Positions 8,002 through 44,153 of a stretch of 64,000 nt of DNA are shown in pieces. The notes under the pieces were generated by a model, which was not told where the DNA came from, ran no database searches, and was given only the letters and a program-made list of their open reading frames with translations. Source of the DNA: a virus (lineage: Duplodnaviria > Heunggongvirae > Uroviricota > Caudoviricetes); the IMG/VR virus record IMGVR_UViG_3300028886_000031, positions 216,485 through 280,484 of that record, one strand, 5' to 3'. The stretch's first letter is position 1, and every line of letters starts with the position of its first letter. Position numbers and translations under genes: made by a program.

Positions 8002-8505
8002 ATGGCTAAACCTAGAATGCTTATTGTTCGTGGTCTTCCAGGATCAGGAAAATCTACGTATGTTAGAAATAACTATACTGGACTTTTTATTTTAGAGACA
8101 GATTGTTTCAATTGTGTTTCTGGACAGTATTATTGGACATCCGATAGAAGTACTGAAGCAATTAGACTTATAGATCGTATAAGTCTCGAGATTATGTCTA
8201 GCTCTAATACTCCAGATTTTGCTATCACTGGAGTCTTTGGTAGACCGTATAGTATGTTAAATCATATATATAGAGCTGAAGAAAATGGATATGATGTCTA
8301 TATCAAAACATTGACAAGTCAATATCCAAATATACATAATGTCCCAAAAGAAACTATTCAGATGTTTAAAAATAATTTTTTGTCAGAAGAACAATTAAAA
8401 GAAACATTTAAATCTTTCCAACATGTACATTATACAGAAATGCCAAAAATAAATTGGGAATTTCACGGAGAACCTGATAATGATTTCTCTAAGAACAAAG
8501 AATGA
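8002..8505 (+). CDS. P-loop kinase (polynucleotide kinase-like / AAA_33-type)
   Basis: Walker A MLIVRGLPGSGKST at the N-terminus, as in the T4 Pnk kinase domain and zeta-like kinases. It is a stand-alone 167-aa protein. Confidence 0.55.
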   Translation: MAKPRMLIVRGLPGSGKSTYVRNNYTGLFILETDCFNCVSGQYYWTSDRSTEAIRLIDRISLEIMSSSNTPDFAITGVFGRPYSMLNHIYRAEENGYDVYIKTLTSQYPNIHNVPKETIQMFKNNFLSEEQLKETFKSFQHVHYTEMPKINWEFHGEPDNDFSKNKE

Positions 8506-10419: not shown

Positions 10420-10434
10420 TGTTTACATCTATCT

Positions 10435-23892: not shown

Positions 23893-24534
23893 ATGGAAGA
23901 TCGATTATGTGAATATGGTTGTAATCAAAAAGCAAAACATATTTTAAAAAATGGAAAATATTGTTGTTCAGAACATCATAATAAATGTCCAGCGATTAGG
24001 ATAAAAAATTCTAATGGAGTATTAAAAGCTTATAATGATGGAAGACTAAATGCAAAAGAGAATTATCAAAAATTATCCCGAGAAACGAAAGACAATATGG
24101 CTTGGAATAGAGGAAAATGTTTAATAAAACCAGAAGATTTAAAAGATAAAAAAGAAATATGTATAGATACAATAGAAAGAATGATTAAAAATAAACTTAT
24201 TGATCTAGAATATAAATGCTGTATATGTGGTAATATTGGAGAATGGAATGGAAAGCCATTGAAATTAGAAATTCATCATATAGATGGAAATCATCAAAAT
24301 AATTCCATAGAGAATTTAACTTATATATGTCCAAATTGCCATACACAAACAAGAACATATAGAAATAGAGGAACATCTAGATGGTTAAAAGAAGATCAAA
24401 TTAGAATTTTTTTAGATGAAAAATTACCTCTATATAATAATGATATAAATGAACTTCTGCAATATGAAAAAGTTAAAAATCAATCTTATGTATATAGAAA
24501 ATATATAGAATGGTATGTTAATAAAAAAGAATAA
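23893..24534 (+). CDS. HNH homing-type endonuclease with N-terminal Cys-rich zinc finger
   Basis: The HNH core is LEIHHIDGNHQNNSIENLTYICPNCHTQT. The N-terminus has CEYGC...CCSEHHNKC. It lies inside the tRNA island, as do the seg/HNH genes of T4-like phages. Confidence 0.65.
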   Translation: MEDRLCEYGCNQKAKHILKNGKYCCSEHHNKCPAIRIKNSNGVLKAYNDGRLNAKENYQKLSRETKDNMAWNRGKCLIKPEDLKDKKEICIDTIERMIKNKLIDLEYKCCICGNIGEWNGKPLKLEIHHIDGNHQNNSIENLTYICPNCHTQTRTYRNRGTSRWLKEDQIRIFLDEKLPLYNNDINELLQYEKVKNQSYVYRKYIEWYVNKKE

Positions 24535-24568: not shown

Positions 24569-24643
24569 GCTGGGTTGGCTCAGTGGTTCAGCACCTTCCT
24601 TGTAAGAAGGATCACGGGGGTTCGAATCCCTCACCCAGCTCCA
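24569..24643 (+). tRNA. tRNA-Thr (anticodon UGU), CCA encoded
   Basis: Acceptor GCTGGGT/ACCCAGC. Anticodon arm CCTTC-CTTGTAA-GAAGG. T-arm GGGGG-TTCGAAT-CCCTC. Confidence 0.8.
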
Positions 24644-24646
24644 TCT

Positions 24647-24724
24647 CGGAGATTAGCTCAGTCTGGCTAGAGCGTTTGTTTTGGGTACAAAATGTCGGGG
24701 GTTCGAATCCCTCATCTCCGACCA
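24647..24724 (+). tRNA. tRNA-Pro (anticodon UGG), CCA encoded
   Basis: Acceptor CGGAGAT/ATCTCCG. D-arm GCTC-AGTCTGGCTA-GAGC. Anticodon arm TTTGT-TTTGGGT-ACAAA. It starts 3 nt after tRNA-Thr. Confidence 0.8.
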
Positions 24725-24957: not shown

Positions 24958-25905
24958 ATGAGACACTCATCGAAAACACAGAGTATATCTGATGTAATAG
25001 AACTATCGAAAGAATATTATAAAATAGATGGTATTTTCTTTGATGATACTTCTGAACAGAAATATTATAAATTACGTTTTATAGATTCCCGTATTGAAAA
25101 TCCCAAAGAAAATCAGTTCGATATAAATGTCTTTAGAGATTTCGATTATGAATCAAATAAAGAATATGCTCTTATTCATGATTTATTTATACATCATGTT
25201 CGACCATTAAAGTTTGATGTAGTAAAAGAATTTTTTAAAGATTTTACTGTAAAATATCAGGTTGTTACAAAGTGCTCAGGAGAAGAATTTAACAAATGCT
25301 ATAGCATAGAATATCCGGAAGAAGCTAAATACAAGTTAGAGAGAATATACCCGCCTCATATATATTTCTTAGCTGATACACATTTTCATCACGGCACGAG
25401 ACTTAAGAACACTCCATATAAAAGTATGCAAGAATATAATGATAAACTTATACAAAAAATTAACGCAGTTGTTCCTGAATATGCAATTCTCGTTCTTGTT
25501 GGAGATGTTTATGTTCCTAGTGATAGTAAAATGGGAAGACAGGAACAGATAGAAGAATTGACAAATATAAGAAAACAAATTAATTGTGAAAAAATCATAA
25601 TAATTCGAGGAAACCATGATAAATTAACATTAATGGATTATTTAAAATGTGGATTTTATGATGTTAGAGATAACTTGATATTACATGATTATGATGGCAG
25701 TAAAATCATCTCAACACACGAAGAAATACAAGATGATATCGGTGAATATAAAAATATTTTTGGACATATTCACAAACCAGAAATTGCTGTTACTGAATCA
25801 ACGTTTAATTGCTCTGCAAATGTTCTAGATGGAATTCCTAAATCCTTATTAGAAATTTTGGAAATGATGAAGGAAAAGACTAAAAATAAGTTTAAAAACA
25901 TATAA
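24958..25905 (+). CDS. calcineurin-like metallophosphoesterase (paralog 1) with N-terminal extra domain
   Basis: Motifs ADTHFHHG, VGDVY, RGNHDK and GHIHKP. Located between tRNA genes. Confidence 0.6.
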   Translation: MRHSSKTQSISDVIELSKEYYKIDGIFFDDTSEQKYYKLRFIDSRIENPKENQFDINVFRDFDYESNKEYALIHDLFIHHVRPLKFDVVKEFFKDFTVKYQVVTKCSGEEFNKCYSIEYPEEAKYKLERIYPPHIYFLADTHFHHGTRLKNTPYKSMQEYNDKLIQKINAVVPEYAILVLVGDVYVPSDSKMGRQEQIEELTNIRKQINCEKIIIIRGNHDKLTLMDYLKCGFYDVRDNLILHDYDGSKIISTHEEIQDDIGEYKNIFGHIHKPEIAVTESTFNCSANVLDGIPKSLLEILEMMKEKTKNKFKNI

Positions 25906-26112
25906 ATAAATTATATGTTTATATATAAATATTTATTTTTATTTTTGTTTTTACTATTCATATTAATACATATCTTTTTATCCATAGATGATAGATCTCT
26001 GGGATTTCCAACAGATAAAACGAGAATGACTCTTGTAATATCTATAATTAGTTTATTACTTTTTATATTATCGATTTTATTTTCATAGAATAGAATACAT
26101 TGTATATAATTT

Positions 26113-26201
26113 GGAGAGTTACCGAAGTGGCTATAACGGGACGGTCTTGAAAACCGCTGACCCGAAAGGGTCCGGGGGTTCGAATCCCTCACTCTCCGCC
26201 A
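26113..26201 (+). tRNA. tRNA-Ser (anticodon UGA), class II, CCA encoded
   Basis: Acceptor GGAGAGT/ACTCTCC. Anticodon loop CTTGAAA. Long variable arm TGACCCGAAAGGGTCC, close to the E. coli tRNA-Ser(UGA) arm. Discriminator G. Confidence 0.8.
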
Positions 26202-26234
26202 TCTTATCTAAAATAATAAAAAGGAGTAATAAAC

Positions 26235-26930
26235 ATGGGTACGACATCCAGTTTTTTAAAACTTAGATCAAAGAAAACTCCAAAAGTTGGAGAATGGAAC
26301 ATTAATTATGCTGCAGCATTACAGCAGGCTAAAGCAGAAAACAAGTTTATTGTAACGCTGTGGACAAATGGTGATTGTTGTGGCTATTGCGTAACCGCTG
26401 AAAAATGTATGATGACAGACACATTTAAGAATTGGATGAAATCCGTCGATGCATACTTTGTTGTTCAATGTGGGACGGATAAAGATAAAGGTAAAACTAC
26501 TCATGATTGGATATATAAAGGTACTGGCTTGAGATATTATCCTGGATTTAGAGTCACATTATATAATTCAAAGGGTGTAGCTTTATTTGATCAGGCTATT
26601 GAAGGAAATAAACTGAGGAAAAATAAAGTTAATGATGCTGGTGCACGTGAAATGATTAATGGTTTTAATGAAATGTTTGCTAAGAAAACAGTTAAACGTA
26701 GTTTAAAATCTAAGAAGTCTAAACAAGATTATAAGATTAGGTTAAACGAAAAATTAACTGTAGCAAAAGTTAACAAGATTCTTGATGCCATTGATAAGTG
26801 TGATGGATATTGTCCTTGTCAACCAAGGTATGAAGGTTCAAAATGCCATTGTGAAGATTTCTTGGAGAACAAGGGCATTGGTGAACCTTGTATCTGTAAT
26901 ATATATGTAAAACAGAAGAAGGGCAAGTAA
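26235..26930 (+). CDS. hypothetical Cys-rich protein (CxxC near N-terminus, EGF-like Cys cluster at C-terminus)
   Basis: LWTNGDCCGYC is a thioredoxin-like CxxC context. The C-terminus has CDGYCPCQPRYEGSKCHCEDF...CICN. Confidence 0.5.
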   Translation: MGTTSSFLKLRSKKTPKVGEWNINYAAALQQAKAENKFIVTLWTNGDCCGYCVTAEKCMMTDTFKNWMKSVDAYFVVQCGTDKDKGKTTHDWIYKGTGLRYYPGFRVTLYNSKGVALFDQAIEGNKLRKNKVNDAGAREMINGFNEMFAKKTVKRSLKSKKSKQDYKIRLNEKLTVAKVNKILDAIDKCDGYCPCQPRYEGSKCHCEDFLENKGIGEPCICNIYVKQKKGK

Positions 26931-26946
26931 TTAACAATGGATATAG

Positions 26947-27405
26947 ATGTTGGAGGACAAAATAATGTTTAAAGTTATCAACATATTAATACAAAAAATT
27001 AAAAGTTTGTTTAAAGGAAAGAAGCCAGAGGCTAATTCTTCCGAACAAGTGCATTGGATCAATCATATATATGATGAGTCGAAATTCTGGCCTAATACTG
27101 GCGGAATGTATGCTAATGTTCACGGATTTGATGAAGGTCCTGGACAGGTGTATTGGGTTGGAGTTGATATTCGCTCATTCTTCATCAGATGTGCTGATTA
27201 CGTCATTAAATGTAAGAACAAGTCTACATATGATCATTATATAAATATGTGCGCAGAGGATATTCTTCACGCAATAAGGAACGACCCGCGTCTCGATTAC
27301 CACTATGGAAACGATGTGAATGTTGATTTCAAGTTCAGATGGTGTGATAATGAGAAACACTTTGATGTTCATTTGGGAACAGATTCTTACGCTGAAGAGA
27401 AATAA
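26947..27405 (+). CDS. hypothetical protein (152 aa)
   Basis: ORF track. Confidence 0.5.
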   Translation: MLEDKIMFKVINILIQKIKSLFKGKKPEANSSEQVHWINHIYDESKFWPNTGGMYANVHGFDEGPGQVYWVGVDIRSFFIRCADYVIKCKNKSTYDHYINMCAEDILHAIRNDPRLDYHYGNDVNVDFKFRWCDNEKHFDVHLGTDSYAEEK

Positions 27406-27413
27406 ATATTAAA

Positions 27414-27500
27414 CGCCAGTTGCCGGATATGGATAACGGGGCAGACTGTAAATCTGCTGGTTCTTGACCTTAGGTGGTTCAATTCCATCACTGGCGACCA
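27414..27500 (+). tRNA. tRNA-Tyr (anticodon GUA), bacterial class II type, CCA encoded
   Basis: Acceptor CGCCAGT/ACTGGCG. Anticodon arm GCAGA-CTGTAAA-TCTGC. It has a long variable arm. T-arm GGTGG-TTCAATT-CCATC. Confidence 0.75.
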
Positions 27501-27510
27501 TTTTAAAATA

Positions 27511-27544
27511 GACTGGGCAGGAAACTGTCCAGTCAGTTTTTACT
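27511..27544 (+). terminator. rho-independent terminator after tRNA-Tyr
   Basis: GACTGGGCAG-GAAA-CTGTCCAGTC hairpin followed by AGTTTTT. Confidence 0.55.
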
Positions 27545-27556
27545 CGATTTTAATGT

Positions 27557-27841
27557 ATGTCCAATAGAGTTTTAGAGTTTATAAAGAGAAGGTTTCCACA
27601 AGATAGTAATTGGCTTAATGGGAATTGTTATTATTTCGCATTGATATTAAGTGACCGTTTCGATGGTGAAATTCTATATGATGTGATAGACGGGCACTTT
27701 GTGACTTTAATTGATGGAATTAAATACGATTGGGAAGGTATTGTCCCACAAAATGGGATACATAAATACATTAAATGGAATGACTTTGATAAATATGATA
27801 AATATCAAAAGAAATCTGTTATAAGCGGTTGTATTAAGTAA
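27557..27841 (+). CDS. hypothetical protein (94 aa)
   Basis: ORF track. Confidence 0.5.
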   Translation: MSNRVLEFIKRRFPQDSNWLNGNCYYFALILSDRFDGEILYDVIDGHFVTLIDGIKYDWEGIVPQNGIHKYIKWNDFDKYDKYQKKSVISGCIK

Positions 27842-27857
27842 TTAAAAAGGAGAAGTT

Positions 27858-28016
27858 ATGCCAGAATCCAAAGAATTAGACCTTAAAAAGGACATAGAAA
27901 GCTGTATTAATATAATGTATACCCTTTTAGATGATATTTATGATTTATGTAAATACGAAAGTCCGGAAGCAGAAAATTTCCTAAAGGGACTGAAGGAAAA
28001 ATATAATTTTACTTAA
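27858..28016 (+). CDS. hypothetical small protein (52 aa)
   Basis: Strong RBS aaaaggagaagttATG. It is not in the track (<60 aa). Confidence 0.45.
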   Translation: MPESKELDLKKDIESCINIMYTLLDDIYDLCKYESPEAENFLKGLKEKYNFT

Positions 28017-28034
28017 ACATAGAATAAAAAGTAT

Positions 28035-28124
28035 GGAACCTTGGCTGAGTCTGGCTTATAGCAGCAACCTACTAAGTTGCCGAGGGGAAACCCTCCGCTG
28101 GTTCAAATCCAGCAGGTTCCGCCA
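28035..28124 (+). tRNA. class II tRNA-Ser-like with anticodon loop CUACUAA (anticodon ACU), CCA encoded
   Basis: Acceptor GGAACCT/AGGTTCC with G discriminator (Ser identity). D-arm GCTG-AGTCTGGCTTA-TAGC. Anticodon stem GCAAC/GTTGC. The loop differs from the tRNA-Ser(GCU) loop CUGCUAA only by G34 to A. It has a long variable arm. T-arm GCTGG-TTCAAAT-CCAGC. Confidence 0.65.
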
Positions 28125-28128
28125 TTTA

Positions 28129-28203
28129 GCCCTCATCGTCTAACGGTTAGGACATTAGGTTTTCATCCTGATAACAGGAGTTCGACTCTCCTTGAGGGTG
28201 CCA
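28129..28203 (+). tRNA. tRNA-Glu (anticodon UUC), CCA encoded
   Basis: Acceptor GCCCTCA/TGAGGGT. Anticodon arm TTAGG-TTTTCAT-CCTGA. T-arm AGGAG-TTCGACT-CTCCT. Confidence 0.8.
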
Positions 28204-28223
28204 TGATTTCGTAAAGGAGAAAC

Positions 28224-28469
28224 ATGATAGACGAGAAAACAATAGATAATTATTTATCTATATATAGAAATTTACGTCTCACGATGGAAATTTGTGGAAA
28301 TGAAACTATATCATTAGAACCATATAAATGCAGTTTTATTGTCACAATATATAAAAATGATATAGCAATTAACCAGTCCATTTTCACGGACTGGAAAGAA
28401 GCGTATCAAGATTTTGAGAAATTAATTGAAACTGAGATGGTTGACTTTATTCGTAGCAAAAAATACTAG
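28224..28469 (+). CDS. hypothetical protein (81 aa)
   Basis: ORF track. RBS aaaggagaaacATG. Confidence 0.5.
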   Translation: MIDEKTIDNYLSIYRNLRLTMEICGNETISLEPYKCSFIVTIYKNDIAINQSIFTDWKEAYQDFEKLIETEMVDFIRSKKY

Positions 28470-28574
28470 TCGATTTTAAAAACTCATCTAATTCTATATA
28501 TATTAAAAAATGTAGAGTGTTGTAATTTACAGATAAACATTCTACTTTTTGTTTTCTAATCAAACGGAGAAATT

Positions 28575-29201
28575 ATGAGTAAGTTCTTCATTACGAGTGA
28601 TGATCACTTCTACCATAAAAATATAATCAAATATTGTAACAGACCATGGAATCATGGTTTTGATAAAGATGGAAATATGATTATAACAGATGAAGATGTT
28701 CAAAACATGAACAATGAATTAATAGAGAACTGGAATTCTGTTGTAAATAAAGATGATATTGTTTTTAACCTTGGAGACTTTTGTTTCCTTGGCAAGAAAA
28801 CAAGTCCTAAATATTATTCTGAATACTCAAAGATATTCAATTGTTTAAATGGAGTAAAATATCTACTTATTGGAAATCACGATATTCCAGATGTACATGT
28901 TCATTATAAAATTGGATGGAAAGCAGTTTATGACAGACCAATTCTATGGTCAGGGAATATTATATTCTCACATAGACCTTTATGTACAAAATTAAAATGT
29001 GATGTTTCAAAACTTCCATTTATAAACATTTTTGGTCATATACATAACAACGGTTGTGATTTTGTTAATGGTGAATCTGTGGTAATTCCTTCCATTACAA
29101 AAAATACATTTTGTGCCTGTGTAGAATTAACGAACTATAAGCCGATTTTATTAAGTGAAATAGAAGATCGTATAAAAGAAAAGAGTCTGGAGAATGAATA
29201 G
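28575..29201 (+). CDS. calcineurin-like metallophosphoesterase (paralog 2)
   Basis: Motifs SDDHFYH, LGDFCF, IGNHD and GHIHNN. Confidence 0.6.
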   Translation: MSKFFITSDDHFYHKNIIKYCNRPWNHGFDKDGNMIITDEDVQNMNNELIENWNSVVNKDDIVFNLGDFCFLGKKTSPKYYSEYSKIFNCLNGVKYLLIGNHDIPDVHVHYKIGWKAVYDRPILWSGNIIFSHRPLCTKLKCDVSKLPFINIFGHIHNNGCDFVNGESVVIPSITKNTFCACVELTNYKPILLSEIEDRIKEKSLENE

Positions 29202-30018
29202 ATTCTTTACTGCAGATTGGCATCTATTCTCTGAGTCCGTTCGAAAACTTGGAGATAGACCTTATGCTGATATTTTTGCCATGAACAAGGCATTGATTAG
29301 AAATGCTAATCAAAGAACTCATTGTACATATAAAGAGGTATCTATTAAAGATGTTAATGGCAACAATGTTGCTATAAAAGTCCCGATTAAAGAAGATGTA
29401 ATATATCATTTAGGTGATTTCTATAAATATGATTCCCAATTCAAAGTAAAACCGGATGAGATTCTATCACATATAAACTCTAAAGTAATTCTCTTGGAAG
29501 GAAACCATGATAAGAACAATAGAGTAAAGATATTGGCAAATGCACTCACGATGGATATAGGTCCGTTTAAAAACGTTACATTATCACATTATCCATCTTA
29601 CTATGAAGAATCTAAGTTTCTTAATATTCCAAATCATTCTATACATATTTGTGGTCATGTCCACAAACTTTATAAATGGGCATACGATAAGTATAGGGAC
29701 GTTCTTAATATAAATGTTGGTGTAGATGTATGGAATTATAGAATAGTGTCAGAGCGGGAACTTATTACATATATCACATTTATACTTCAAAGATTAGATA
29801 ATAGTTTTATAACAGAGAATATAAATACAACATGTCATAAAGATTTTGTGCTAACAAACAACACTATAGAGCCAAAAAATCTGGAAAAGGAGAAAGATAA
29901 TGGCAAAAGAAAAGCAAGAAAATTCAAACTCGGAATCCAAGATAAACAACAAGAAATGTTGTCGCTGTATTTACAGGCACGAGAAAAAGTGCTCAAACAA
30001 GAAGTCACCGAACTTTGA
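29194..30018 (+). CDS. calcineurin-like metallophosphoesterase (paralog 3)
   Basis: Motifs TADWHLF, HLGDFYKYD, EGNHDKNN and GHVHK. It overlaps the upstream paralog by 8 nt. Confidence 0.6.
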   Translation: MNRFFTADWHLFSESVRKLGDRPYADIFAMNKALIRNANQRTHCTYKEVSIKDVNGNNVAIKVPIKEDVIYHLGDFYKYDSQFKVKPDEILSHINSKVILLEGNHDKNNRVKILANALTMDIGPFKNVTLSHYPSYYEESKFLNIPNHSIHICGHVHKLYKWAYDKYRDVLNINVGVDVWNYRIVSERELITYITFILQRLDNSFITENINTTCHKDFVLTNNTIEPKNLEKEKDNGKRKARKFKLGIQDKQQEMLSLYLQAREKVLKQEVTEL

Positions 30019-30084: not shown

Positions 30085-30162
30085 GTGGATGTATATCAGC
30101 TGGCTAAGATAGTCGCTCTGATAAAGCGAAGGTCGATGGTTCGAATCCATCCATCCACACCA
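30085..30162 (+). tRNA. tRNA-Ile (anticodon GAU), CCA encoded
   Basis: Acceptor GTGGATG/CATCCAC. D-arm TATC-AGCTGGCTAA-GATA. Anticodon arm TCGCT-CTGATAA-AGCGA. T-arm GATGG-TTCGAAT-CCATC. Confidence 0.8.
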
Positions 30163-30446: not shown

Positions 30447-30662
30447 ATGGATAGTCGTGCAGCAACAGATTTTAAAATTAAATATGATTATCGTTTTGCA
30501 CCAAAAAGCAAAAACACATGTGATAAATGTAAGAGACATTATAAAGGTGTTGAGAGAATGATATGCAATGGCAGAACAGAATCAGAATGTTCTAGTACAG
30601 AATACCCTGTTACATTTACAACATACGAAAACCATACATGTAAGAGATTTAAAAGGCAGTAA
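30447..30662 (+). CDS. small Cys-rich protein (71 aa)
   Basis: CDKCKRHYKG...CNGRTESEC...HTCKRFK pattern. Confidence 0.45.
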   Translation: MDSRAATDFKIKYDYRFAPKSKNTCDKCKRHYKGVERMICNGRTESECSSTEYPVTFTTYENHTCKRFKRQ

Positions 30663-31309
30663 TGTTCAGGATACTTGGAAAAATCCCAAATAATTTCTAC
30701 TTAGCATGTTCCGGTGGAACGGACTCAATGGTGTTTTTGGATTTTCTCATGAAATATCCAAAAAATAAAATTACAATTTTACATTTTGATCATGGAACAC
30801 AATATTGTAAGGAAGCACATGAGTTCGTATATCGTTTCTGCATCGAACATAGATTATCTTTTGTAATACAATCTATATTACCTCAAGATAAAAAAGAGAA
30901 GAATGAATCATGGGAAGTTTACTGGAGAAGATGTAGATATAAATTCTTATCAGAATTTAAAGATAAACCGATCGTAATGTGTCATCAATTAAATGACTGC
31001 ATTGAAACTTGGATAATGACGTCTATGTCAGGTCATCCAAGACTGATACCTTATTATAATAGTAAATATAACATTATCAGACCGTTTCTGTGTGTTTCTA
31101 AATCACAGGTGGATGAATGGAGAAAACGACATAATGTGAAATGTGTGATTGATGGATCTAACTATGATCTCAGAGCAAAAAGAAATTATGTTCGACATGT
31201 CATGATGAAGAACATATATGAACTCAATCCTGGAATAGAGAAAACTATAAAAAGACTCATCACAAAACAATATAGTTTAGCTTTGGAGAATGAGTATGAC
31301 AATTCTTAA
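30662..31309 (+). CDS. PP-loop ATPase, tRNA(Ile)-lysidine synthetase (TilS) N-terminal-domain-like
   Basis: The SGGTDS PP-loop, HFDHG and CHQLNDCIETWIMTSMSGHP...IIRPFL parallel the TilS motifs SGGxDS, VDHGLR and HHxDDQAET...RPLL. It has no C-terminal Zn motif, so it is unlike QueC. Confidence 0.5.
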   Translation: MFRILGKIPNNFYLACSGGTDSMVFLDFLMKYPKNKITILHFDHGTQYCKEAHEFVYRFCIEHRLSFVIQSILPQDKKEKNESWEVYWRRCRYKFLSEFKDKPIVMCHQLNDCIETWIMTSMSGHPRLIPYYNSKYNIIRPFLCVSKSQVDEWRKRHNVKCVIDGSNYDLRAKRNYVRHVMMKNIYELNPGIEKTIKRLITKQYSLALENEYDNS

Positions 31310-31628: not shown

Positions 31629-32402
31629 ATGAAAACAATCAAAATTCTTGCAATAATATTATCAACATGTATCATAACTGGATGTTCTCAAGTAGATCTT
31701 GGTGAAGTTGGTATTAAAACAGAATTTGGTAAAATTAAAGAAGGTCCTCTTAAAGAAGGTCTATATTGGTATACATGGTTTGGACAGAATATAGAGACAT
31801 ACAATATTAAGAATCAAACATTTGATACTACAGAAATAGTTTTCTCTAAAGATGCTCAGGAAGCAACAATGATGATATCATTGTTGTATAACTTGGATAG
31901 TTCTAAAATAGTTGATCTACACAAAAACACAGGTATTAAATATTCCGATATTCTAATTAAGCCAAACTTTTCTGATACATTAAAGAATGTTTCTGGAAAG
32001 TGGGAAGCAATGGATATGATTGGAAACAGACAAAGACTTTCTGTTGAAGTCTATACAAATATGGTTGCTTTATTAAAGCCTTATGGTATCAATGTACAGA
32101 AAGTCAATATTACAAATATAGACTTTAAAGATGCGTTTGAAGCTGCTGTAGAAGAAAAACAAGTTGCACTTCAAAAAGCACTTAAAGCAAAGAATGATAC
32201 TGTTCGTATTAAAGAGGAAGCTGAACAGAAATTGTTAACAGCTGAAGCTGAAGCCAAAGCAATGTCTGTTCGTGCCAAGGCTCTTGAACAAAATAAGAGT
32301 TTGGTAGAATACGAAGCTGTTATGAAATGGAATGGAGTTCTGCCTCATTACATGATGGGACAATCTGTTCCATTTATTAACATAGGGAGTATTCAGAAAT
32401 GA
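31629..32402 (+). CDS. SPFH/band-7 (prohibitin-like) domain lipoprotein
   Basis: The signal peptide plus lipobox ITGC at the N-terminus. The C-terminal coiled Ala/Glu-rich segment EEAEQKLLTAEAEAKAMSVRAKALEQN is typical of the SPFH family. Confidence 0.55.
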   Translation: MKTIKILAIILSTCIITGCSQVDLGEVGIKTEFGKIKEGPLKEGLYWYTWFGQNIETYNIKNQTFDTTEIVFSKDAQEATMMISLLYNLDSSKIVDLHKNTGIKYSDILIKPNFSDTLKNVSGKWEAMDMIGNRQRLSVEVYTNMVALLKPYGINVQKVNITNIDFKDAFEAAVEEKQVALQKALKAKNDTVRIKEEAEQKLLTAEAEAKAMSVRAKALEQNKSLVEYEAVMKWNGVLPHYMMGQSVPFINIGSIQK

Positions 32403-32836: not shown

Positions 32837-32915
32837 GGGAGTGTAGCTCAGTTGGTAGTTTAGCACGATCCTTTTAAGATCGGGGTCGCGGGTTCGATCC
32901 CCGCCACTCCCACCA
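32837..32915 (+). tRNA. tRNA-Lys (anticodon UUU), CCA encoded
   Basis: Acceptor GGGAGTG/CACTCCC. Anticodon arm CGATC-CTTTTAA-GATCG. T-arm GCGGG-TTCGATC-CCCGC. Confidence 0.8.
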
Positions 32916-33747: not shown

Positions 33748-34355
33748 GCATTGGTTCATCTGATACAAGAAAATTTGGAAAATGGTTTCAAATTAGATGG
33801 GCTGAAAAACTTGGAGATCCAGAGAATCCATATTTAATAAGATGGACGTTAATTTTATTTGGATACTCTATTAGATTACATCATTGGTTGAGGTCAGATG
33901 ATAGAAGATATTTTCATGATCATAGTTCAAATCTTTTAAGCATTGTATTAAAAGGATGGTACATTAACGTAACTCCAAAAGACCCATCAAAAGTACCAGA
34001 CTATAAATATTCGGATAGAAAATATTGGCATACTTTTAGATCTTTAACTGGTGATTTGTATACATCTTTTTATCTTGACGATGATAATAGGGAATTACAT
34101 TTTGTAGAAGGTATATTTAATTCCTTCAAGAATTTTCTTAACATGTTTAAATACTCTATCTGGTATTCTAAAGCCACAGATAGACATTATCTATCTATTC
34201 CAAAAAGTGGAGCATGGACTCTATTGTTTGAGGGTAGAAAATATCATAAATGGGGTTTTTATGTTCCAAAAAATAAACAATCAGAAGTTAGAAAATTAAG
34301 ACCTCTAAGATATTTTCATAAATTCGGAATAATCCAGACAAAAGATTATCAATGA
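33744..34355 (+). CDS. hypothetical protein (203 aa)
   Basis: ORF track. ATGA overlap with the neighbouring gene. Confidence 0.5.
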   Translation: MSIGSSDTRKFGKWFQIRWAEKLGDPENPYLIRWTLILFGYSIRLHHWLRSDDRRYFHDHSSNLLSIVLKGWYINVTPKDPSKVPDYKYSDRKYWHTFRSLTGDLYTSFYLDDDNRELHFVEGIFNSFKNFLNMFKYSIWYSKATDRHYLSIPKSGAWTLLFEGRKYHKWGFYVPKNKQSEVRKLRPLRYFHKFGIIQTKDYQ

Positions 34356-34828
34356 AAGTTTTATTTTTGGATATAGATGGAGTCATTAATAGATTTAAGT
34401 ATTATGATGATGGAAAACTCGACAATGAGTTAGATGAAGATTGTATTAAAAGATTAAGCAACATTATAGAATCTACAAATTGTAAGATTGTTATAAGTTC
34501 TACATGGAAGGCTTCTCCTCATCTAATGGATATTCTAGAAGACGATTTATTTCCACACTTACCCGCTGGCTGTGTCGCTGGATGTACAAAGACACATATT
34601 CCACAAGTGCAACGAGAGACGGAAATTAGGGAGTATTTAGCCGAGCATAAAGACGAGATAGAGAATTATGTTATAGTGGATGATTATGATTTTGAATTAA
34701 AATCCTTCTTAAATGGCGGTCATTGTGTTATCACAGACGCGTTAGATGGACTAACAAAAGAGGATATGGATGAATGTATCAAAATTCTAAACAAAGAAAG
34801 GAATCAAAATGACAGAAGTAAAAAGTGA
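34352..34828 (+). CDS. HAD-superfamily phosphatase (T4 Pnkp phosphatase-domain-like)
   Basis: HAD motif I FLDIDGV at residues 5-11, motif II VISSTW and motif IV YVIVDDYD. It is a stand-alone 158-aa protein. Confidence 0.6.
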   Translation: MKVLFLDIDGVINRFKYYDDGKLDNELDEDCIKRLSNIIESTNCKIVISSTWKASPHLMDILEDDLFPHLPAGCVAGCTKTHIPQVQRETEIREYLAEHKDEIENYVIVDDYDFELKSFLNGGHCVITDALDGLTKEDMDECIKILNKERNQNDRSKK

Positions 34829-35264
34829 ATTATATAACAAGATCTATGAAGATCTTAAAAATTCGATGAAAGAAAAGAATATTCAAAAAAGAGATGTTCT
34901 TAAAATAATTATCTCCGGAGTTAAAAATGAAACAATTAACAACGGGAAAGATATCACAGATGACGCATGTAAATCCGTTCTAAGAAAACTTGTAAAACAA
35001 CATGAAGATTCTATACAGCAGTTCACAGATGCAAATAGAATGGATCTTGTTTCAAAGGAAGCCTTGGAACTTACATATTTGAGGTTTTACCTTCCCAAGA
35101 TGATGTCTGACGAAGAAATGAAATCAGAAATTAATAATATTATTAAGGTAAACAATATACCTTTAGCTAGGCAAAATATGGGTCAGATCATGAAAATTGT
35201 CAAGCAGTATGATAATATAGATATGAAAAAGGCTTCAGAGTATATTAAGTCAATCATGAACTGA
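34809..35264 (+). CDS. GatB/YqeY-domain protein (tRNA-binding helical domain)
   Basis: LKNSMKEKNIQKRDVLKIIISGVKN...LRKLVKQHEDSIQQF...DLVSKEALELTYLRFYLPKMMSDEEM follows the YqeY/GatB C-terminal-domain pattern (K..D..RL..LR.L...IKN...YLP..LSEEE). Confidence 0.5.
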   Translation: MTEVKSELYNKIYEDLKNSMKEKNIQKRDVLKIIISGVKNETINNGKDITDDACKSVLRKLVKQHEDSIQQFTDANRMDLVSKEALELTYLRFYLPKMMSDEEMKSEINNIIKVNNIPLARQNMGQIMKIVKQYDNIDMKKASEYIKSIMN

Positions 35265-38435: not shown

Positions 38436-39182
38436 TTGAAAGTTGTCATGAGTTGTTTTAATAAAAAGATTAAAAAACTTGTATCCAAAGATATCGTTAC
38501 AGAAGAAAAATGTATTTGTTCTGATAAATTGAAAGCCAAGGAATATGTTAAAAACTTAAATATCAAAGTTGTAAATATTCCAAAGGTTATAGATATCCTA
38601 GGAAAAGAAATAGTTCCAGAGAAAATAGATTTTACAAAATATAATTATCCTATGATGCTTAAATGTAATCATGGATGTAAATTCAATGTTCTATGCAGAA
38701 CAATTAAAAATGTAAATAAAAAAAATATAAAATATCTCAACAACTGTATAAAAATGAATTTCTCTAAAGTTAATGGAGAATTCCAATATTATAATATAGA
38801 TAGAAAAATATTTATAGAAGAATTTCTACCAATAGAGATGACAATTAAATTTCATTGTTTTCATGGTAATCCAATGTTTGTAGAAATTTTTAAAATGTCT
38901 TTTCTAAAACCAATTTGCTGTAACGAATATGATATAAATTTTAATAAATTCGAATTTACAAATGCTTTTAAAAGATATGATTTAACACCAAGAGTTCCAA
39001 GTTATCCTAAGTTGGTGGAAGATACAAAAAAACTATGTCAAAATTTCGATTATGTTAGAGTAGATTACTATATAGATGTATTGAAGAAAATTTGGTTTAG
39101 CGAATTCACTTTTAGTCCAGCAGCTGGAAATTTACATTTTATAAATCGTAAAATGGATCAATATTTTGGAAGTTTAATATGA
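38436..39182 (+). CDS. TupA-like ATP-grasp protein (capsule/teichuronic-acid-locus family)
   Basis: PMMLKCNHGCKFNVLC, EFQYYNIDRKIFIEEFL and IKFHCFHGNPMFVEI parallel the ATPgrasp_TupA blocks (fVlKpnHGsG, EwqYk..p.i.vEe.L, DyKffcFnG.p.f). Confidence 0.45.
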   Translation: MKVVMSCFNKKIKKLVSKDIVTEEKCICSDKLKAKEYVKNLNIKVVNIPKVIDILGKEIVPEKIDFTKYNYPMMLKCNHGCKFNVLCRTIKNVNKKNIKYLNNCIKMNFSKVNGEFQYYNIDRKIFIEEFLPIEMTIKFHCFHGNPMFVEIFKMSFLKPICCNEYDINFNKFEFTNAFKRYDLTPRVPSYPKLVEDTKKLCQNFDYVRVDYYIDVLKKIWFSEFTFSPAAGNLHFINRKMDQYFGSLI

Positions 39183-39856
39183 CGTTGACAAAAGAAGATA
39201 TTTTAAAACATGCTTTTGTTATTTCTATTAGTAATAAAAGATTGAGAACATTCTATGAGAGAATGAATAGTATTGGCTTTAATAACATTCAGCATGTAAT
39301 TGGTTCACAATATTCGGACGATAAAGTTAAGAATATTAATATTACAACAATAAATATTATAAAATATGCTATTAAAAACAATTATAGTAAAATAACAATA
39401 TTTGAAGATGATGCTTTTCCAGTTAAGGATTTTAATAATAGATTTCTAGAAGTTATACAGAATATCCCGGATGATGCTAGATGCTTAGCATTAGGATACA
39501 ATGCTGTAAATAGCATATTTAATAAAAATAAAGATAAAAAATACGATCTTTTAAATCAAGAAGAACTTAAAAATAAAATATTTGTTAATAGAAAATATAT
39601 TAAATCATTCTGGGGTGGTCATAGCTATATTATGTTCAAAAAAGATTATTGGAGATATATAAATCTATTATCAAAATATACTCCAGACAATTCTAAATAT
39701 GAAGTAGATAAATGTATATGGATGAGAAATAATTATTTCTATACTATAAGAATTCCATTATTTGTACAAAAAAATTTTGATGACATACATAATGTTCATA
39801 AATCAGAAGGAAACAAATGTGCTGATATGATTAATAAAGAATATAATATTCTCTAG
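39179..39856 (+). CDS. glycosyltransferase family 25-like (LPS/LOS-type)
   Basis: N-terminal AFVISISNKRLRTFYERMNSIGFNNIQHVIGSQ plus TIFEDDAFP match the GT25 signature. It is a paralog of 42714-43523. Confidence 0.5.
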   Translation: MTLTKEDILKHAFVISISNKRLRTFYERMNSIGFNNIQHVIGSQYSDDKVKNINITTINIIKYAIKNNYSKITIFEDDAFPVKDFNNRFLEVIQNIPDDARCLALGYNAVNSIFNKNKDKKYDLLNQEELKNKIFVNRKYIKSFWGGHSYIMFKKDYWRYINLLSKYTPDNSKYEVDKCIWMRNNYFYTIRIPLFVQKNFDDIHNVHKSEGNKCADMINKEYNIL

Positions 39857-40166
39857 TTTCAATTTCATTTGGAGTTATATAAGAAATATCTCCAGAATAT
39901 AAAATTTCAGTTAGAATAACTTTCTGTGCTTCTGTATAGTCCTCTGGAACCACAGGTCTAGAATATGTATTAGTACCATCTTCTAATTGATAGTATTTTT
40001 TTAAGTCCATAATTACATTTTCATTAGTATTTGTTATATTATTAGCAAATGTATATATGTTCTCGTTTGAATTATCTATTTGCCAATATAATATATCACA
40101 GAAACAGATCATATAAAATAGAATACAAGTTATAAACAATAGAATTTTTTTCATAAACTTCTCCAT
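39831..40166 (-). CDS. hypothetical secreted/TM protein (111 aa)
   Basis: N-terminal hydrophobic segment ILLFITCILFYMICFC. Confidence 0.45.
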   Translation of the reverse strand: MEKFMKKILLFITCILFYMICFCDILYWQIDNSNENIYTFANNITNTNENVIMDLKKYYQLEDGTNTYSRPVVPEDYTEAQKVILTEILYSGDISYITPNEIETREYYILY

Positions 40167-40227
40167 TTGGTAATTAATGAACCATTGTTTATTAAGGCTG
40201 ACATGTAATAATTCTATAATCTAACGA

Positions 40228-40980
40228 TTATATCTTTTCTCCCCATAAAACACAGATCTTATTGTGTTTACTTAAGAATTTCTTTTGATCTTCTGTTAGC
40301 TCATTATAATAAGGATGTTTTTTGATGTTATCTATATTAACTCTTTTAATAATTCTATATTTAACATTCCATGGAGTTTCAACAATATCACCTTCGTAAT
40401 ATCTATCATAATCATTAGAAACTCTTGTAGTAACAAACTTATTCTTTTTAGATAATTCTTCTATTTCATTTTTAGGAAATTCTATCATCTTTACTTTCTG
40501 TTTAACTATAGAATTTGCCAAATATTCACAGAATGATTCTTCTTCCATTTTGTTTGGTCTAACATGATCTAAATATACAGTATGGAAAGCTTCTTTTCTA
40601 ACTTTTACTTTAATTAATCTTTTAAACCATTTATCACAAATATTATTATAAACTTCATGAGCTAGTTCGTGTGCTATAATAATCTTATTGAATACATCTT
40701 TTGAATCTTTTATTTTGTAAAAATCCATTACATCTTCTATATTGGGATTAATTTGAATGTATTTTAACTTTGTCCAAGATCCACCAGATTCTTCTTGTTT
40801 TAATTCATGACATTGTTTTCCATTATTGTAAATTGGTTGAGAATTTATCTTTAATTTCATGTAAGATAAGTCAAAATTGTATACTTGTTTGTAAGCATTA
40901 ATACAATATCTAAAATTCTTTTTAATGAGATCGATATTAGAGTTATTTATAGATTCCATTAAAAAAGAGTATTGTTTCAT
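40228..40980 (-). CDS. CTS-tagged internal-protein candidate with HExxH metallopeptidase motif
   Basis: The true N-terminus is probably the internal MKQYSFLMESINN. It contains IIAHELAHEVYNN (HExxH). Confidence 0.55.
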   Translation of the reverse strand: MKQYSFLMESINNSNIDLIKKNFRYCINAYKQVYNFDLSYMKLKINSQPIYNNGKQCHELKQEESGGSWTKLKYIQINPNIEDVMDFYKIKDSKDVFNKIIIAHELAHEVYNNICDKWFKRLIKVKVRKEAFHTVYLDHVRPNKMEEESFCEYLANSIVKQKVKMIEFPKNEIEELSKKNKFVTTRVSNDYDRYYEGDIVETPWNVKYRIIKRVNIDNIKKHPYYNELTEDQKKFLSKHNKICVLWGEKI

Positions 40981-41306
40981 AACCATTCCTTTAATGATTT
41001 GATTGCACATTTAACATCATTTTCTGTACAATCACGAGATAAAGGACCATTTCTATGTCCTAATAAACCAAATTGTGAAGCACTACTTTGTGCCTTATCT
41101 GGATAAAATGTAAATCCACATCTATGTTTTGTTGGTTCACCTCTATATACAATAATGTATGTTTCTCCTCTAGCATTGTGTTCTGATATATGAACATCCT
41201 TATGGTTAGATATAATATTTTTAATTTCAGAAACACCTTTATCATAAATTGGAAATTCTGATTCTTGTGATGTTACAGATTCTAAAAGGAAAGAGTATTG
41301 TTTCAT
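40977..41306 (-). CDS. CTS-tagged internal-protein candidate (109 aa)
   Basis: N-terminus MKQYSFLLESV. Confidence 0.55.
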   Translation of the reverse strand: MKQYSFLLESVTSQESEFPIYDKGVSEIKNIISNHKDVHISEHNARGETYIIVYRGEPTKHRCGFTFYPDKAQSSASQFGLLGHRNGPLSRDCTENDVKCAIKSLKEWL

Positions 41307-43523: not shown

Positions 43524-43534
43524 TCTTTCTAATT

Positions 43535-43915: not shown

Positions 43916-43916
43916 A

Positions 43917-44153
43917 TTACTTATTTTCCTTTAAAAAATTTCTATATGATTCTGAAATATCTATCCAACTTGTTCCACTTCTACCAAAATATTGGTTAGA
44001 ATCAGATTTTAGAACAATATATCCAATATTATCCTTGAAATTTGAGGATTCTATCAGTTTATCAAATTCGTCCCAATCTTTAATAGCTCTAAAGAATTCT
44101 GGAGCACCATTTAGATCTTTAAGAGTATATGCCTTATTACTTTCCATTTTCAA
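43917..44153 (-). CDS. hypothetical protein (78 aa), no CTS
   Basis: ORF track. It sits between CTS genes. Confidence 0.45.
   Translation of the reverse strand: MKMESNKAYTLKDLNGAPEFFRAIKDWDEFDKLIESSNFKDNIGYIVLKSDSNQYFGRSGTSWIDISESYRNFLKENK

What the first reader, a model, noticed from the sequence alone, without database searches (positions are those of the whole stretch)
24958..30018. Three paralogous calcineurin-like phosphoesterases interleaved with tRNA genes (plus a fourth HTH-fused copy at 3825-4946)
Genes 24958-25905, 28575-29201 and 29194-30018 each carry the full metallophosphoesterase motif set (D-x-H, G-D, G-N-H-D, G-H-x-H). They sit between tRNA-Pro, -Ser, -Tyr, -Glu and -Ile.

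Bacterial Pnkp-type RNA repair enzymes use a calcineurin-like phosphoesterase domain to remove 2',3'-cyclic or 3'-phosphate ends. T4 uses Pnkp and Rnl1 to heal tRNA-Lys cut by the PrrC anticodon nuclease. This phage encodes its own tRNA-Lys(UUU).

Triplicated end-healing enzymes embedded in the tRNA island could be a counter-defense against host anticodon nucleases (PrrC, RloC, colicin-like). Alternatively they could be nucleotide or dNTP phosphatases.
Basis: inference. Interest (0 to 1): 0.6.

Follow-up and report, generated by a model that had tools for sequence, protein, structure and literature searches.

The report
Triplicated phage phosphoesterases in tRNA island
A 322-kb gut or rumen-type jumbo phage carries three diverged copies of a widespread but untested phage phosphoesterase inside its tRNA gene cluster, and fusions and gene neighbours elsewhere suggest they clean up the ends of cut tRNAs, although no RNA-joining enzyme was found nearby.

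Summary
ORFs 24958-25905 (A), 28575-29201 (B) and 29194-30018 (C) are intact binuclear metallophosphoesterases of one family (phrog_547; closest structure Aquifex aq_1665, function unknown). They lie among eight same-strand tRNA genes. The "fourth copy" (3825-4946) belongs to a different family (phrog_704) and sits next to a RuvC-like gene.

The RNA end-healing idea is partly supported, by association only:
- Many B homologs are fused to HAD_SAK_2, a phosphatase domain predicted for RNA repair. Others keep a degenerate remnant of it.
- The window encodes a free-standing HAD_SAK_2 (34352-34828).
- Orthologs lie next to Rnl1-type RNA ligase and a small P-loop kinase in four unrelated phage groups, and near RtcB, Thg1-like or Rnl1 genes in others.
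- The window also holds that kinase family (8002-8505).

Against it:
- No RNA ligase lies in the window or in 10 kb on either side. About 237 kb of the 322-kb genome could not be read.
- A dereplicated survey of 39 phage lineages found a ligase nearby in only five.
- No family member has been assayed.

Aravind-group surveys already predicted calcineurin-like enzymes in phage RNA repair. I rate this a new variant of a known kind, of moderate interest.

The parts
24958..25905 (+). Paralog A. A 315-aa metallophosphoesterase with the catalytic domain at residues ~135-310 and an orphan N-terminal domain of ~134 aa.
   Evidence: phrog_547 E 4e-28. Pfam Metallophos 28.6 bits. B-family profile E 1e-49. 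All metal ligands are kept, but it diverges at the family-specific positions N16 and R23. Only one other homolog cluster was found for the full protein (83% identical) and for the N-terminal domain.
28575..29201 (+). Paralog B. A 208-aa canonical family member that is the catalytic domain only.
29194..30018 (+). Paralog C. A 274-aa protein with the catalytic domain followed by a Lys/Arg-rich C-terminal tail of ~70 aa. Its start overlaps the stop codon of B by 8 nt, with GGAG upstream, which suggests translational coupling.
   Evidence: phrog_547 E 3e-25. Pfam Metallophos_2 28.4 bits. B-family profile E 2e-36. Metal ligands are kept, but the family positions H14 and N16 are replaced by Ser. The overlap sequence is shown. 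The B-C tandem is conserved in the relative L001 at 56% and 59% identity.
34352..34828 (+). Free-standing HAD_SAK_2 phosphatase, the predicted polynucleotide 3'- or 2'-phosphomonoesterase partner.
8002..8505 (+). Small P-loop kinase, the candidate polynucleotide 5'-kinase.
   Evidence: Walker A motif GLPGSGKS. Weak AAA_33 hit, E 5e-4, below threshold. E 7e-12 against a profile of the kinases that sit beside Rnl1 and the phosphoesterase in FFH2, ESCO8, PaP1 and Thalassa. E 9e-10 to the AAA_33 kinase of locus L106. Shared motifs ExD and H(D/N)VP.
24569..24724 (+). tRNA-Thr(UGU) 24569-24643 and tRNA-Pro(UGG) 24647-24724.
   Evidence: ARAGORN. Rfam tRNA 58 and 64 bits. CCA is encoded.
26113..26201 (+). 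tRNA-Ser(UGA).
27414..27500 (+). tRNA-Tyr(GUA), followed by a terminator-like hairpin at 27511-27534.
28035..28203 (+). tRNA-Ser(ACU) 28035-28124 and tRNA-Glu(UUC) 28129-28203.
30085..30162 (+). tRNA-Ile(GAU).
32837..32915 (+). tRNA-Lys(UUU).
30662..31309 (+). TilS-like PP-loop ATPase with the N-terminal catalytic domain only. It is a likely tRNA-modifying member of the island.
   Evidence: Pfam ATP_bind_3 E 6e-30. NCBIfam TIGR02432 lysidine_TilS_N at 116 bits, above the cut-off of 93.6. Syntenic in L001.
31629..32402 (+). SPFH/Band_7 lipoprotein. It is conserved with the island, and its role is unknown.
   Evidence: phrog_200 E 5e-50. Pfam Band_7 on the source contigs. 74% identical in L001. 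Band_7 also lies within 8 kb of family members in L107, L118, L120 and L152.
34809..35264 (+). YqeY/GatB-type domain protein, overlapping the end of the HAD gene.
   Evidence: Pfam YqeY E 3e-30. phrog_1460 'tRNA amidotransferase'. A YqeY homolog lies within 10 kb of family members in 16 of 80 IMG/VR loci, which form 3 clusters.

Best explanation
A, B and C are active two-metal phosphoesterases. I propose they act on damaged RNA 3' ends as part of a dispersed tRNA-repair toolkit of this ~322-kb jumbo phage.

Proposed steps:
1. [quoted passage not shown]
2. The metallophosphoesterases open the cyclic phosphate, and may also remove the resulting monoester.
3. The capless HAD_SAK_2 enzyme (34352-34828) removes the remaining 3'- or 2'-phosphate.
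4. The small P-loop kinase (8002-8505) phosphorylates the 5'-OH.
5. A ligase encoded elsewhere, or a host enzyme, seals the break.

The three paralogs would then differ in end chemistry or in RNA substrate. B is the canonical enzyme. A and C have changed family-specific substrate-side residues and gained an orphan N-terminal domain and a basic C-terminal tail respectively.

Shown: family membership, intact catalytic residues, the fold, the fusions and the gene neighbourhoods.
Inferred: the substrate, the order of the steps, the division of labour among the paralogs, and the link to host nucleases.
For: 1. Fusion evidence. Among 190 homologs of B, at least 25 cluster representatives are N-terminal HAD_SAK_2 plus C-terminal phosphoesterase. 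About 35 more carry a ~100-aa N-terminal remnant of that HAD domain that has lost the DxD motif. Here the two domains are separate genes 5 kb apart in one island.

2. Orthologs sit beside an Rnl1-type ligase and an AAA_33 kinase in four different phage groups, in different gene orders. The orthologs score 1e-36 to 1e-60 against the B-family profile. The groups are Vequintavirus FFH2, Justusliebigvirus ESCO8, Pakpunavirus PaP1 and the T5-like Vibrio phage Thalassa. Domains were checked.

3. Other contexts:
- RtcB in Listeria phage VAfA18 and Caulobacter phage CcrPW.
- Two RNA ligases, HAD_SAK_2 and a Thg1-like gene in a 315-kb phage contig.
- HAD_SAK_2, Rnl1 and AAA_33 in L106.

4. The window encodes that kinase family and an intact HAD_SAK_2.

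5. The island also holds eight tRNAs and TilS-like and YqeY genes. It is syntenic in a relative at 56-80% protein identity.

6. In IMG/VR, family members lie inside tRNA arrays in at least five further lineages: L113, L120, the L125 group, L142 and L150. In L120 a HAD_SAK_2 gene lies 60 nt from the phosphoesterase inside a 14-tRNA array.

7. Published comparative genomics already places calcineurin-like phosphoesterases in phage RNA-repair neighbourhoods (PMC9503650; PMC7824862).
Against: - No RNA ligase is present in the window or in 10 kb on either side, about 84 kb in all.
- In the less biased IMG/VR survey, only 5 of 39 dereplicated lineages have Rnl1 or RtcB within 10 kb, 2 have HAD_SAK_2 and 1 has the kinase. 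About half show none of the RNA-related markers I could detect. My earlier figure of 8 of 14 came from contexts I chose myself.
- No background control was run, so enrichment near tRNAs is not established.
- Bastille-like Bacillus phages, which hold the closest named homologs at 35% identity, place the gene beside Mre11/SbcC in the replication module.
- Several contexts link the gene equally well to NAD+ salvage genes.
- Structure gives no substrate clue. aq_1665 is uncharacterised and Pnkp ranks low.
- HAD_SAK_2's role in RNA repair is itself a prediction.
- No family member has been assayed; I found no paper reporting one.
Confidence: 0.45

Rival explanations
1. The paralogs are small-molecule phosphodiesterases or phosphatases. 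They would hydrolyse nucleotide-derived immune signals or by-products, such as cyclic oligonucleotides, cyclic ADP-ribose isomers, ADP-ribose 1'',2''-cyclic phosphate or 2',3'-cNMPs. They would work with the phage's NAD+ salvage genes rather than on RNA ends.
For: - Family members lie within 6 kb of NAMPT and PRPP-synthetase or NMNAT genes in Staphylococcus phage 812, PaP1, Thalassa, ESCO8 and CcrPW.
- They lie next to Nudix in Enterococcus phage EFDG1 and near Sir2 and MazG in FFH2.
- The window has NAMPT, NMNAT/Nudix and an HD protein at 53.7-57.1 kb.
- Structural neighbours YfcE, MJ0936, LpxH and GpdQ act on small substrates.
- Iyer et al. 2022 allow that such enzymes process ADPr>P.
Against: - Fusion to a capless HAD (best match MDP-1) and operons with Rnl1 and a polynucleotide-type kinase point to polymer ends.
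- In this window the NAD genes are 25 kb from the paralogs.
- This reading gives no reason for three copies inside a tRNA array.
Confidence: 0.2
2. The paralogs are nucleases or DNA-end processing enzymes, like Mre11/SbcD, the ligase-associated PdeM/MPE endonuclease or the mycobacteriophage gp48 that damages host DNA. They would serve replication, recombination or host DNA breakdown.
For: - In Bacillus phage Chotacabras, one of the closest named homologs lies directly upstream of Mre11 and SbcC between helicase and primase.
- The weak best NCBIfam hits are PdeM and an SbcD-related family.
- A phage metallophosphoesterase with phosphodiesterase activity that disrupts host DNA integrity is documented (PMC12287305).
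Against: - All these matches are far below family thresholds: 17-33 bits against cut-offs of 115-150.
- Bxb1 gp47, of the mycobacteriophage type, scores E 0.24 against the family profile.
- B is a bare 208-aa catalytic domain with no capping domain, and no SbcC partner lies nearby.
- The window has a separate exonuclease-type metallophosphoesterase (3825-4946) beside RuvC for DNA work.
Confidence: 0.12
3. The paralogs process the phage's own tRNA transcripts, or are early genes carried along in the tRNA transcription unit. Their place among tRNAs would then reflect shared expression timing rather than counter-defence.
For: - All genes and tRNAs of the island are on the same strand with short spacers. 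C ends 67 nt before tRNA-Ile.
- Only one convincing terminator-like hairpin lies in the island, at 27511-27534.
- tRNA islands of large phages commonly collect small accessory genes and homing endonucleases, such as the HNH gene at 23893-24534.
Against: - Pre-tRNA processing by RNase P and RNase Z leaves ends that need no phosphoesterase (established knowledge).
- All nine tRNAs encode CCA.
- Most family members are not near tRNAs.
Confidence: 0.08
4. The paralogs are Ser/Thr or Tyr protein phosphatases that reprogram host proteins.
For: - Some database records label homologs as Ser/Thr phosphatase.
Against: - The PPP signature motifs (GDxHG, GDxVDRG, GNHE) are absent. These proteins have DxH, GD and GNHD.
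- NinI-like and Ser/Thr phosphatases encoded in the same phages are separate genes that score E 0.06 and 4e-4 against the family profile.
Confidence: 0.04

Closest known systems
Phage 'Rnl1 - small kinase - phosphoesterase' neighbourhoods (rV5/FFH2, phi92-like ESCO8, PAK_P1-like PaP1, T5-like Vibrio phage Thalassa). Iyer et al. [quoted passage not shown]
   Same: The phosphoesterase is orthologous, scoring 1e-36 to 1e-43 against the profile. The kinase family is the same. NAD+ salvage genes occur in the same genome region.
   Different: Here there are three diverged paralogs instead of one. They are embedded in a tRNA array and accompanied by HAD_SAK_2. The kinase is 20 kb away. No Rnl1 was found in 84 kb.
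T4 Pnkp plus Rnl1 repair of tRNA-Lys cut by PrrC
   Same: The logic is the same: heal the 3' end, phosphorylate the 5' end, then seal. A DxDxT-type HAD phosphatase and a P-loop kinase are both present as candidates. The phage also carries tRNA-Lys(UUU).
   Different: T4 uses one bifunctional kinase-HAD protein and no metallophosphoesterase (PMC3592404). Here the activities are on separate genes, the HAD is of the SAK_2 family, metallophosphoesterases are added, and no ligase was located.
Bacterial Pnkp (Clostridium thermocellum Pnkp/Hen1), phosphatase domain PDB 4j6o
   Same: It is a binuclear metallophosphoesterase used for 2',3'-cyclic-phosphate and 3'-phosphate end healing (PMC1920235).
Aquifex aeolicus aq_1665 (PDB 1xm7), a structural-genomics protein of unknown function
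   Different: It is a cellular protein with no known activity or context, so it adds no functional information.
HAD_SAK_2-phosphoesterase fusion proteins from metagenomes (for example P0009, P0048, P0057, P0067)
   Same: They contain the same two domains that this phage encodes as separate genes. The phosphoesterase part is 38-43% identical to B.
   Different: They are single polypeptides of 340-360 aa. Many relatives have a decayed HAD part. Here HAD is intact and free-standing.
Mycobacteriophage A10ZJ24 gp48 / Bxb1 gp47 metallophosphoesterase
   Same: It is a phage-encoded metallophosphoesterase with a counter-defence role and measured phosphodiesterase activity (PMC12287305).
   Different: It is a different family, scoring E 0.24 against the B-family profile. 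It acts on host DNA.

Membership tests
Calcineurin-like binuclear metallophosphoesterase superfamily | Motif set DxH, GD, GNH(D/E), H, GHxH that supplies the metal ligands | tested here: met
   All motifs are present in A, B and C at aligned positions. Pfam Metallophos or Metallophos_2 is above or near threshold for A and C.
Calcineurin-like binuclear metallophosphoesterase superfamily | Two-sheet beta-sandwich phosphoesterase fold | tested here: met
phrog_547 / aq_1665-like phosphoesterase family | Significant full-length match to the family profile | tested here: met
   phrog_547 E 4e-28, 4e-36 and 3e-25. The local family profile gives 1e-49, 3e-72 and 2e-36. 1xm7 is the top PDB hit for all three.
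phrog_547 / aq_1665-like phosphoesterase family | Family-specific extended motif I: D-x-H-F-x-H-x-N-I-I-K-Y-C-N-R-P | tested here: inconclusive
   B has it in full. A keeps H14 and P24 but has T at N16 and at R23. C keeps R23 and P24 but has S at H14 and at N16.
Bacterial Pnkp-type end-healing phosphatase (lambda-phosphatase-like clade) | Closest structural and sequence kinship to the Pnkp phosphatase domain or lambda phosphatase | tested here: not met
Bacterial Pnkp-type end-healing phosphatase (lambda-phosphatase-like clade) | Fusion with a 5'-kinase and an adenylyltransferase/ligase domain, with a Hen1 partner | tested here: not met
   A, B and C are free-standing. The extra domains of A and C match nothing known. 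No Hen1 or ligase is in the window.
Bacterial Pnkp-type end-healing phosphatase (lambda-phosphatase-like clade) | 2',3'-cyclic phosphodiesterase and 3'-phosphatase activity on RNA ends | not testable with these tools
   This needs an enzyme assay.
T4-type healing-and-sealing RNA repair system | Polynucleotide 5'-kinase | tested here: inconclusive
   8002-8505 belongs to the small kinase family that accompanies Rnl1 in five phage contexts. Its Pfam AAA_33 match is below threshold and its substrate is unknown.
T4-type healing-and-sealing RNA repair system | DxDxT (HAD) 3'-phosphatase | tested here: met
   34352-34828 matches HAD_SAK_2 at E 1e-27, has the DIDGV motif and conserved S50 and D110-D111, and has a capless HAD fold. 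It is not the Pnkp HAD family itself.
T4-type healing-and-sealing RNA repair system | RNA ligase (Rnl1, Rnl2 or RtcB) in the same genome | tested here: inconclusive
   None lies in the window or in 10 kb on either side. About 237 kb of the genome could not be read. A capped metagenome scan did not return the source contig.
Mre11/SbcD nucleases | Phosphoesterase domain plus capping domain, with an SbcC/Rad50 partner | tested here: not met
   B is 208 aa with no capping domain. The Mre11 of Bacillus phage Chotacabras scores E 0.006 against the family profile. No SbcC-like gene was seen near A, B or C.
PPP Ser/Thr phosphatases (lambda NinI type) | Motifs GDxHG, GDxVDRG and GNHE | tested here: not met
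   These motifs are absent. NinI-like proteins from the same kinds of phage do not match the profile.

The most novel reading that the evidence does not exclude
The three paralogs and the HAD enzyme form a ligase-independent tRNA end-repair system. Each paralog would be tuned to a different end chemistry or tRNA site. Together they would strip 2',3'-cyclic, 3'- or 2'-phosphates from tRNAs whose 3' CCA tails or loops were clipped by host immune nucleases. The host CCA-adding enzyme or aminoacyl-tRNA synthetases could then restore function without any sealing step. That would explain why the genes sit in the tRNA island, why they have multiplied, and why no ligase is nearby. Immune cleavage of tRNA tails has been reported (title of PMC12851939).
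Probability: 0.1. Interest if true: 0.75.

Novelty: new variant of a known kind. Interest (0 to 1): 0.42.

Why it matters
- This phosphoesterase family occurs in at least 1371 deposited phage genomes, including Kayvirus, P100-like, rV5-like, phi92-like, PAK_P1-like and T5-like therapeutic or model phages. No tested function turned up in my literature searches.
- The evidence here turns a vague 'phosphoesterase' label into a specific hypothesis that can be tested at the bench: a cyclic-phosphodiesterase/phosphatase pair that prepares cut tRNA ends. That evidence is the fusion to HAD_SAK_2, the operons with Rnl1 and a small kinase, and the repeated placement inside tRNA arrays.
- If the hypothesis is right, phage tRNA islands are repair stations as well as spare-part depots. 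That bears on how phages escape the fast-growing list of tRNA-targeting defences.
- If the enzymes instead act on nucleotide signals or DNA, the same assays would show it.

Tried and rejected
- **Near-identical DNA in the phage collection:** no match. An exact 42-mer from B was not in IMG/VR.
- **Search for the phage's RNA ligase:**
  - Pfam or PHROGs on most ORFs of 200 aa or more.
  - Local Rnl1 profiles on all six frames of the window and both 10-kb flanks.
  - hhalign of the Rnl1 alignment against the unannotated 306-aa and 338-aa ORFs: probability below 1%.
  - Motif scan for KxDG: none.
  - Viral and metagenome scans with Rnl1 and a 5.8-billion-protein search. None returned the 321-kb source contig, but all were capped, so the result is inconclusive.
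- **Walking along the genome** was limited to one step each way by the look-up rules.
- **The kinase candidate against the PDB** gave only artefactual polyubiquitin repeat hits.
- **A's N-terminal domain:** an orphan in both large protein searches.
- **HAD model against the PDB:** generic capless HADs, with no specific match to T4 Pnkp.
- **NCBIfam:** only sub-threshold PdeM/SbcD-like hits.
- **A neutral control for neighbourhood enrichment** (NrdD query) returned one locus and was abandoned.
- **Repeated 14-mers** to fish out other genome parts: none present.
- **The key review** (Burroughs and Aravind 2016) is not in the library. What I say about it is from memory.
- **Rejected ideas:** the fourth copy as a paralog, and kinship with mycobacteriophage gp47/gp48.

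Full report
**What is there**

The window has 28.6% G+C. It is part of a ~321.6-kb phage genome that was recovered twice, as JGI 3300032007 Ga0310695_10000037 (321,631 bp) and as ENA k141_2997416 (321,653 bp). The two contigs break at different points, which fits a complete circular or circularly permuted genome. It has no close DNA relative among deposited phages.

All three match phrog_547 'phosphoesterase' at E 1e-25 to 1e-36. All three keep every metal-binding motif and all eight columns that are invariant in a 105-member family alignment.

They are old paralogs at 25-28% identity. B is the canonical form. A has an orphan 134-aa N-terminal domain, for which two very large protein searches found only one close relative. 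C has a basic C-terminal tail. The start of C overlaps the stop of B by 8 nt, behind a GGAG.

A and C have lost some family-specific residues next to motif I. This suggests altered substrate contacts rather than loss of catalysis.

Eight same-strand tRNA genes surround them, and all encode CCA.

The 'fourth copy' at 3825-4946 is a different metallophosphoesterase family (phrog_704, E 2e-97). It scores E 0.7 against the B-family profile and sits beside a RuvC-like gene. I leave it out of the feature.

**Fold**

So the proteins are not members of the Pnkp/lambda-phosphatase clade. Structure alone does not identify the substrate.

**Evidence from fusions**

A search of 5.8 billion proteins found 190 homologs of B. 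Many are two-domain proteins, with an N-terminal HAD_SAK_2 (Pfam PF18143, named for predicted 'Swiss Army Knife' RNA-repair proteins) and a C-terminal phosphoesterase. Most of the ~280-300-aa homologs carry an N-terminal remnant of that same HAD domain that has lost its catalytic DxD segment.

The fusion argues that the two enzymes act in sequence on one substrate.

**Evidence from neighbourhoods**

Orthologs (1e-36 to 1e-60 against the family profile) sit next to an Rnl1-type RNA ligase and a ~135-aa AAA_33 kinase in four unrelated phage groups. Gene order differs among the groups:
- E. coli phage FFH2 (rV5-like), where six annotated tRNAs (ARAGORN finds a seventh) lie 3 kb away
- ESCO8 (phi92-like), where phosphoesterase, Rnl1 and kinase are contiguous
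- Pseudomonas phage PaP1
- The T5-like Vibrio phage Thalassa

These come, with domains checked.

Other contexts:
- Listeria phage VAfA18 and Caulobacter phage CcrPW have RtcB nearby.
- A 315-kb phage contig has two RNA ligases, HAD_SAK_2 and a Thg1-like gene around the ortholog.
- Locus L106 has HAD_SAK_2, Rnl1, the ortholog and an AAA_33 kinase.

The window's ORF 8002-8505 belongs to that same kinase family. It scores E 7e-12 against their profile and shares the ExD and H(D/N)VP motifs. The phage therefore has candidates for three of the four activities of a heal-and-seal pathway.

The island itself is conserved in a relative at 56-80% protein identity. The conserved set is the B-C tandem, the TilS-like PP-loop gene, Band_7, HAD_SAK_2, YqeY and the tRNAs.

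**Limits**

The contexts above were picked by me from a ranked list; 8 of 14 had a ligase nearby.

A less biased sample of 80 IMG/VR loci collapses to 39 lineages at 60% identity. Within 10 kb of the phosphoesterase, the counts by lineage were:
- tRNAs: 12
- Rnl1 or RtcB: 5
- Band_7: 3
- YqeY: 3
- HAD_SAK_2: 2
- Thg1-like: 2

About half the lineages show none of these. My ligase detectors were limited to Rnl1 and RtcB. I could not build a neutral control, so enrichment is not demonstrated.

In at least five lineages the gene does lie inside a tRNA array, as it does here. In one of them (L120) a HAD_SAK_2 gene lies 60 nt away. Among ten known-phage contexts, however, only FFH2 has tRNAs nearby.

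Counter-examples exist. Bastille-like Bacillus phages put the gene beside Mre11/SbcC. Kayvirus and Enterococcus phages put it near NAD-salvage or Nudix genes.

No RNA ligase is present in the window or in 10 kb on either side. About 237 kb of the genome was out of reach.

**Literature**

- T4 Pnkp's phosphatase is a HAD enzyme, while bacterial Pnkp uses a metallophosphoesterase (PMC3592404 and PMC1920235).
- Iyer et al. 2021 describe the SAK HAD as the usual free-standing end phosphatase of jumbo phages, with calcineurin-like enzymes 'in a small number' (PMC7824862).
- Iyer et al. 2022 list a calcineurin-like phosphoesterase as an occasional member of the rV5/Mydo ligase-kinase-sirtuin neighbourhood (PMC9503650).

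The general idea has therefore been predicted already. I found no assay of this family.

The one characterised phage metallophosphoesterase with a counter-defence role is A10ZJ24 gp48, which damages host DNA (PMC12287305). It belongs to another family.

**Verdict**

The most likely function is RNA 3'-end healing. The metallophosphoesterases would open cyclic phosphates, the HAD enzyme would remove the monoester, and the small kinase would prepare the 5' end. I put this at about 0.45.

The rivals are a role on nucleotide or ADP-ribose-derived small molecules (0.2), a nuclease role (0.12), co-expression or own-tRNA processing (0.08) and protein phosphatase activity (0.04).

This is a new variant of a predicted kind of phage RNA-repair module: triplicated, embedded in tRNAs, split from HAD_SAK_2, and with no ligase in view. 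Interest is moderate. The main value is a sharp, testable hypothesis for a very common unannotated phage gene family.

Noticed in passing
window 30662-31309: A 215-aa PP-loop protein passes the NCBIfam cut-off for the TilS N-terminal (lysidine synthetase) domain but lacks the TilS C-terminal tRNA-binding domains. It lies 500 nt after tRNA-Ile(GAU). No tRNA with a CAU anticodon was seen in the window. It is conserved in the relative L001.
   Followed up: partly
window 28035-28124: A long-variable-arm tRNA-Ser has anticodon ACU (A at position 34). That is unusual for bacteria and phages and would need A-to-I editing or strict AGU reading. It is supported by ARAGORN and by Rfam at 49 bits.
   Followed up: partly
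window 31629-32402: An SPFH/Band_7 lipoprotein sits inside the tRNA island and is 74% identical in L001. Band_7 genes also lie within 8 kb of family phosphoesterases in four other phage loci (L107, L118, L120, L152). From memory, Burroughs and Aravind 2016 proposed SPFH/Band-7 modules as scaffolds of RNA-repair systems with a tRNA-like RNA. I could not check the paper.
   Followed up: partly
window 53476-57149: This stretch holds tRNA-Gln, an HD-domain protein (53697-54308), an NMNAT/Nudix fusion (54696-55655) and NAMPT (55701-57149). Together they form an NAD+ salvage pair of the kind phages use against NAD-depleting defences. Similar genes sit near the phosphoesterase family in five other phages.
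   Followed up: partly
window 38436-52681, and 883-2266: A large surface-polysaccharide or teichoic-acid-like gene set. It includes a TupA-like ATP-grasp, a GT25, a pyruvyl transferase fused to FrhB-like domains (47102-48778), a nucleotidyltransferase-aminotransferase fusion (48847-50652), a glycerophosphotransferase (50698-51945), and two glycosyltransferases at 883-2266. This is unusual cargo for a phage.
   Followed up: no
window 3825-4946: A metallophosphoesterase of phrog_704 ('DNA repair exonuclease') with a weakly supported N-terminal HTH, directly after a RuvC-like resolvase gene (3059-3820). It is probably a DNA-processing enzyme and is not related to the tRNA-island paralogs at family level.
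   Followed up: partly
window 8002-10419: The small kinase is followed on the same strand by three tightly packed ORFs of 171, 306 and 153 aa that have no detectable homologs or domains. The 306-aa ORF is the size of the small phage Rnl1 ligases but shows no similarity to them.
   Followed up: partly
window 45740-46378: A DNA/RNA non-specific endonuclease (Pfam Endonuclease_NS, E 9e-39).
   Followed up: no
window 23893-24534: An HNH homing-type endonuclease at the upstream edge of the tRNA island. The stretch from A to tRNA-Ser(ACU) (about 24.9-28.1 kb) is absent from the relative L001, where tRNA-Pro and tRNA-Glu are only ~175 nt apart. Paralog A therefore lies in a variable insert.
   Followed up: partly
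L025 1-9300 (10 kb upstream of the window): Anaerobic ribonucleotide reductase NrdD with its activase, a QueC-amidotransferase fusion (possible 7-deazaguanine pathway) and a sugar epimerase/dehydratase.
   Followed up: no
L120 (IMG/VR UViG_3300045988_125276) 1019-11000: An unrelated 117-kb phage has a family phosphoesterase and a HAD_SAK_2 gene 60 nt apart inside a 14-tRNA array, with a Band_7 gene 7.5 kb away. This is the same gene set as the window, in a lineage whose phosphoesterase is only 33% identical to B.
   Followed up: partly
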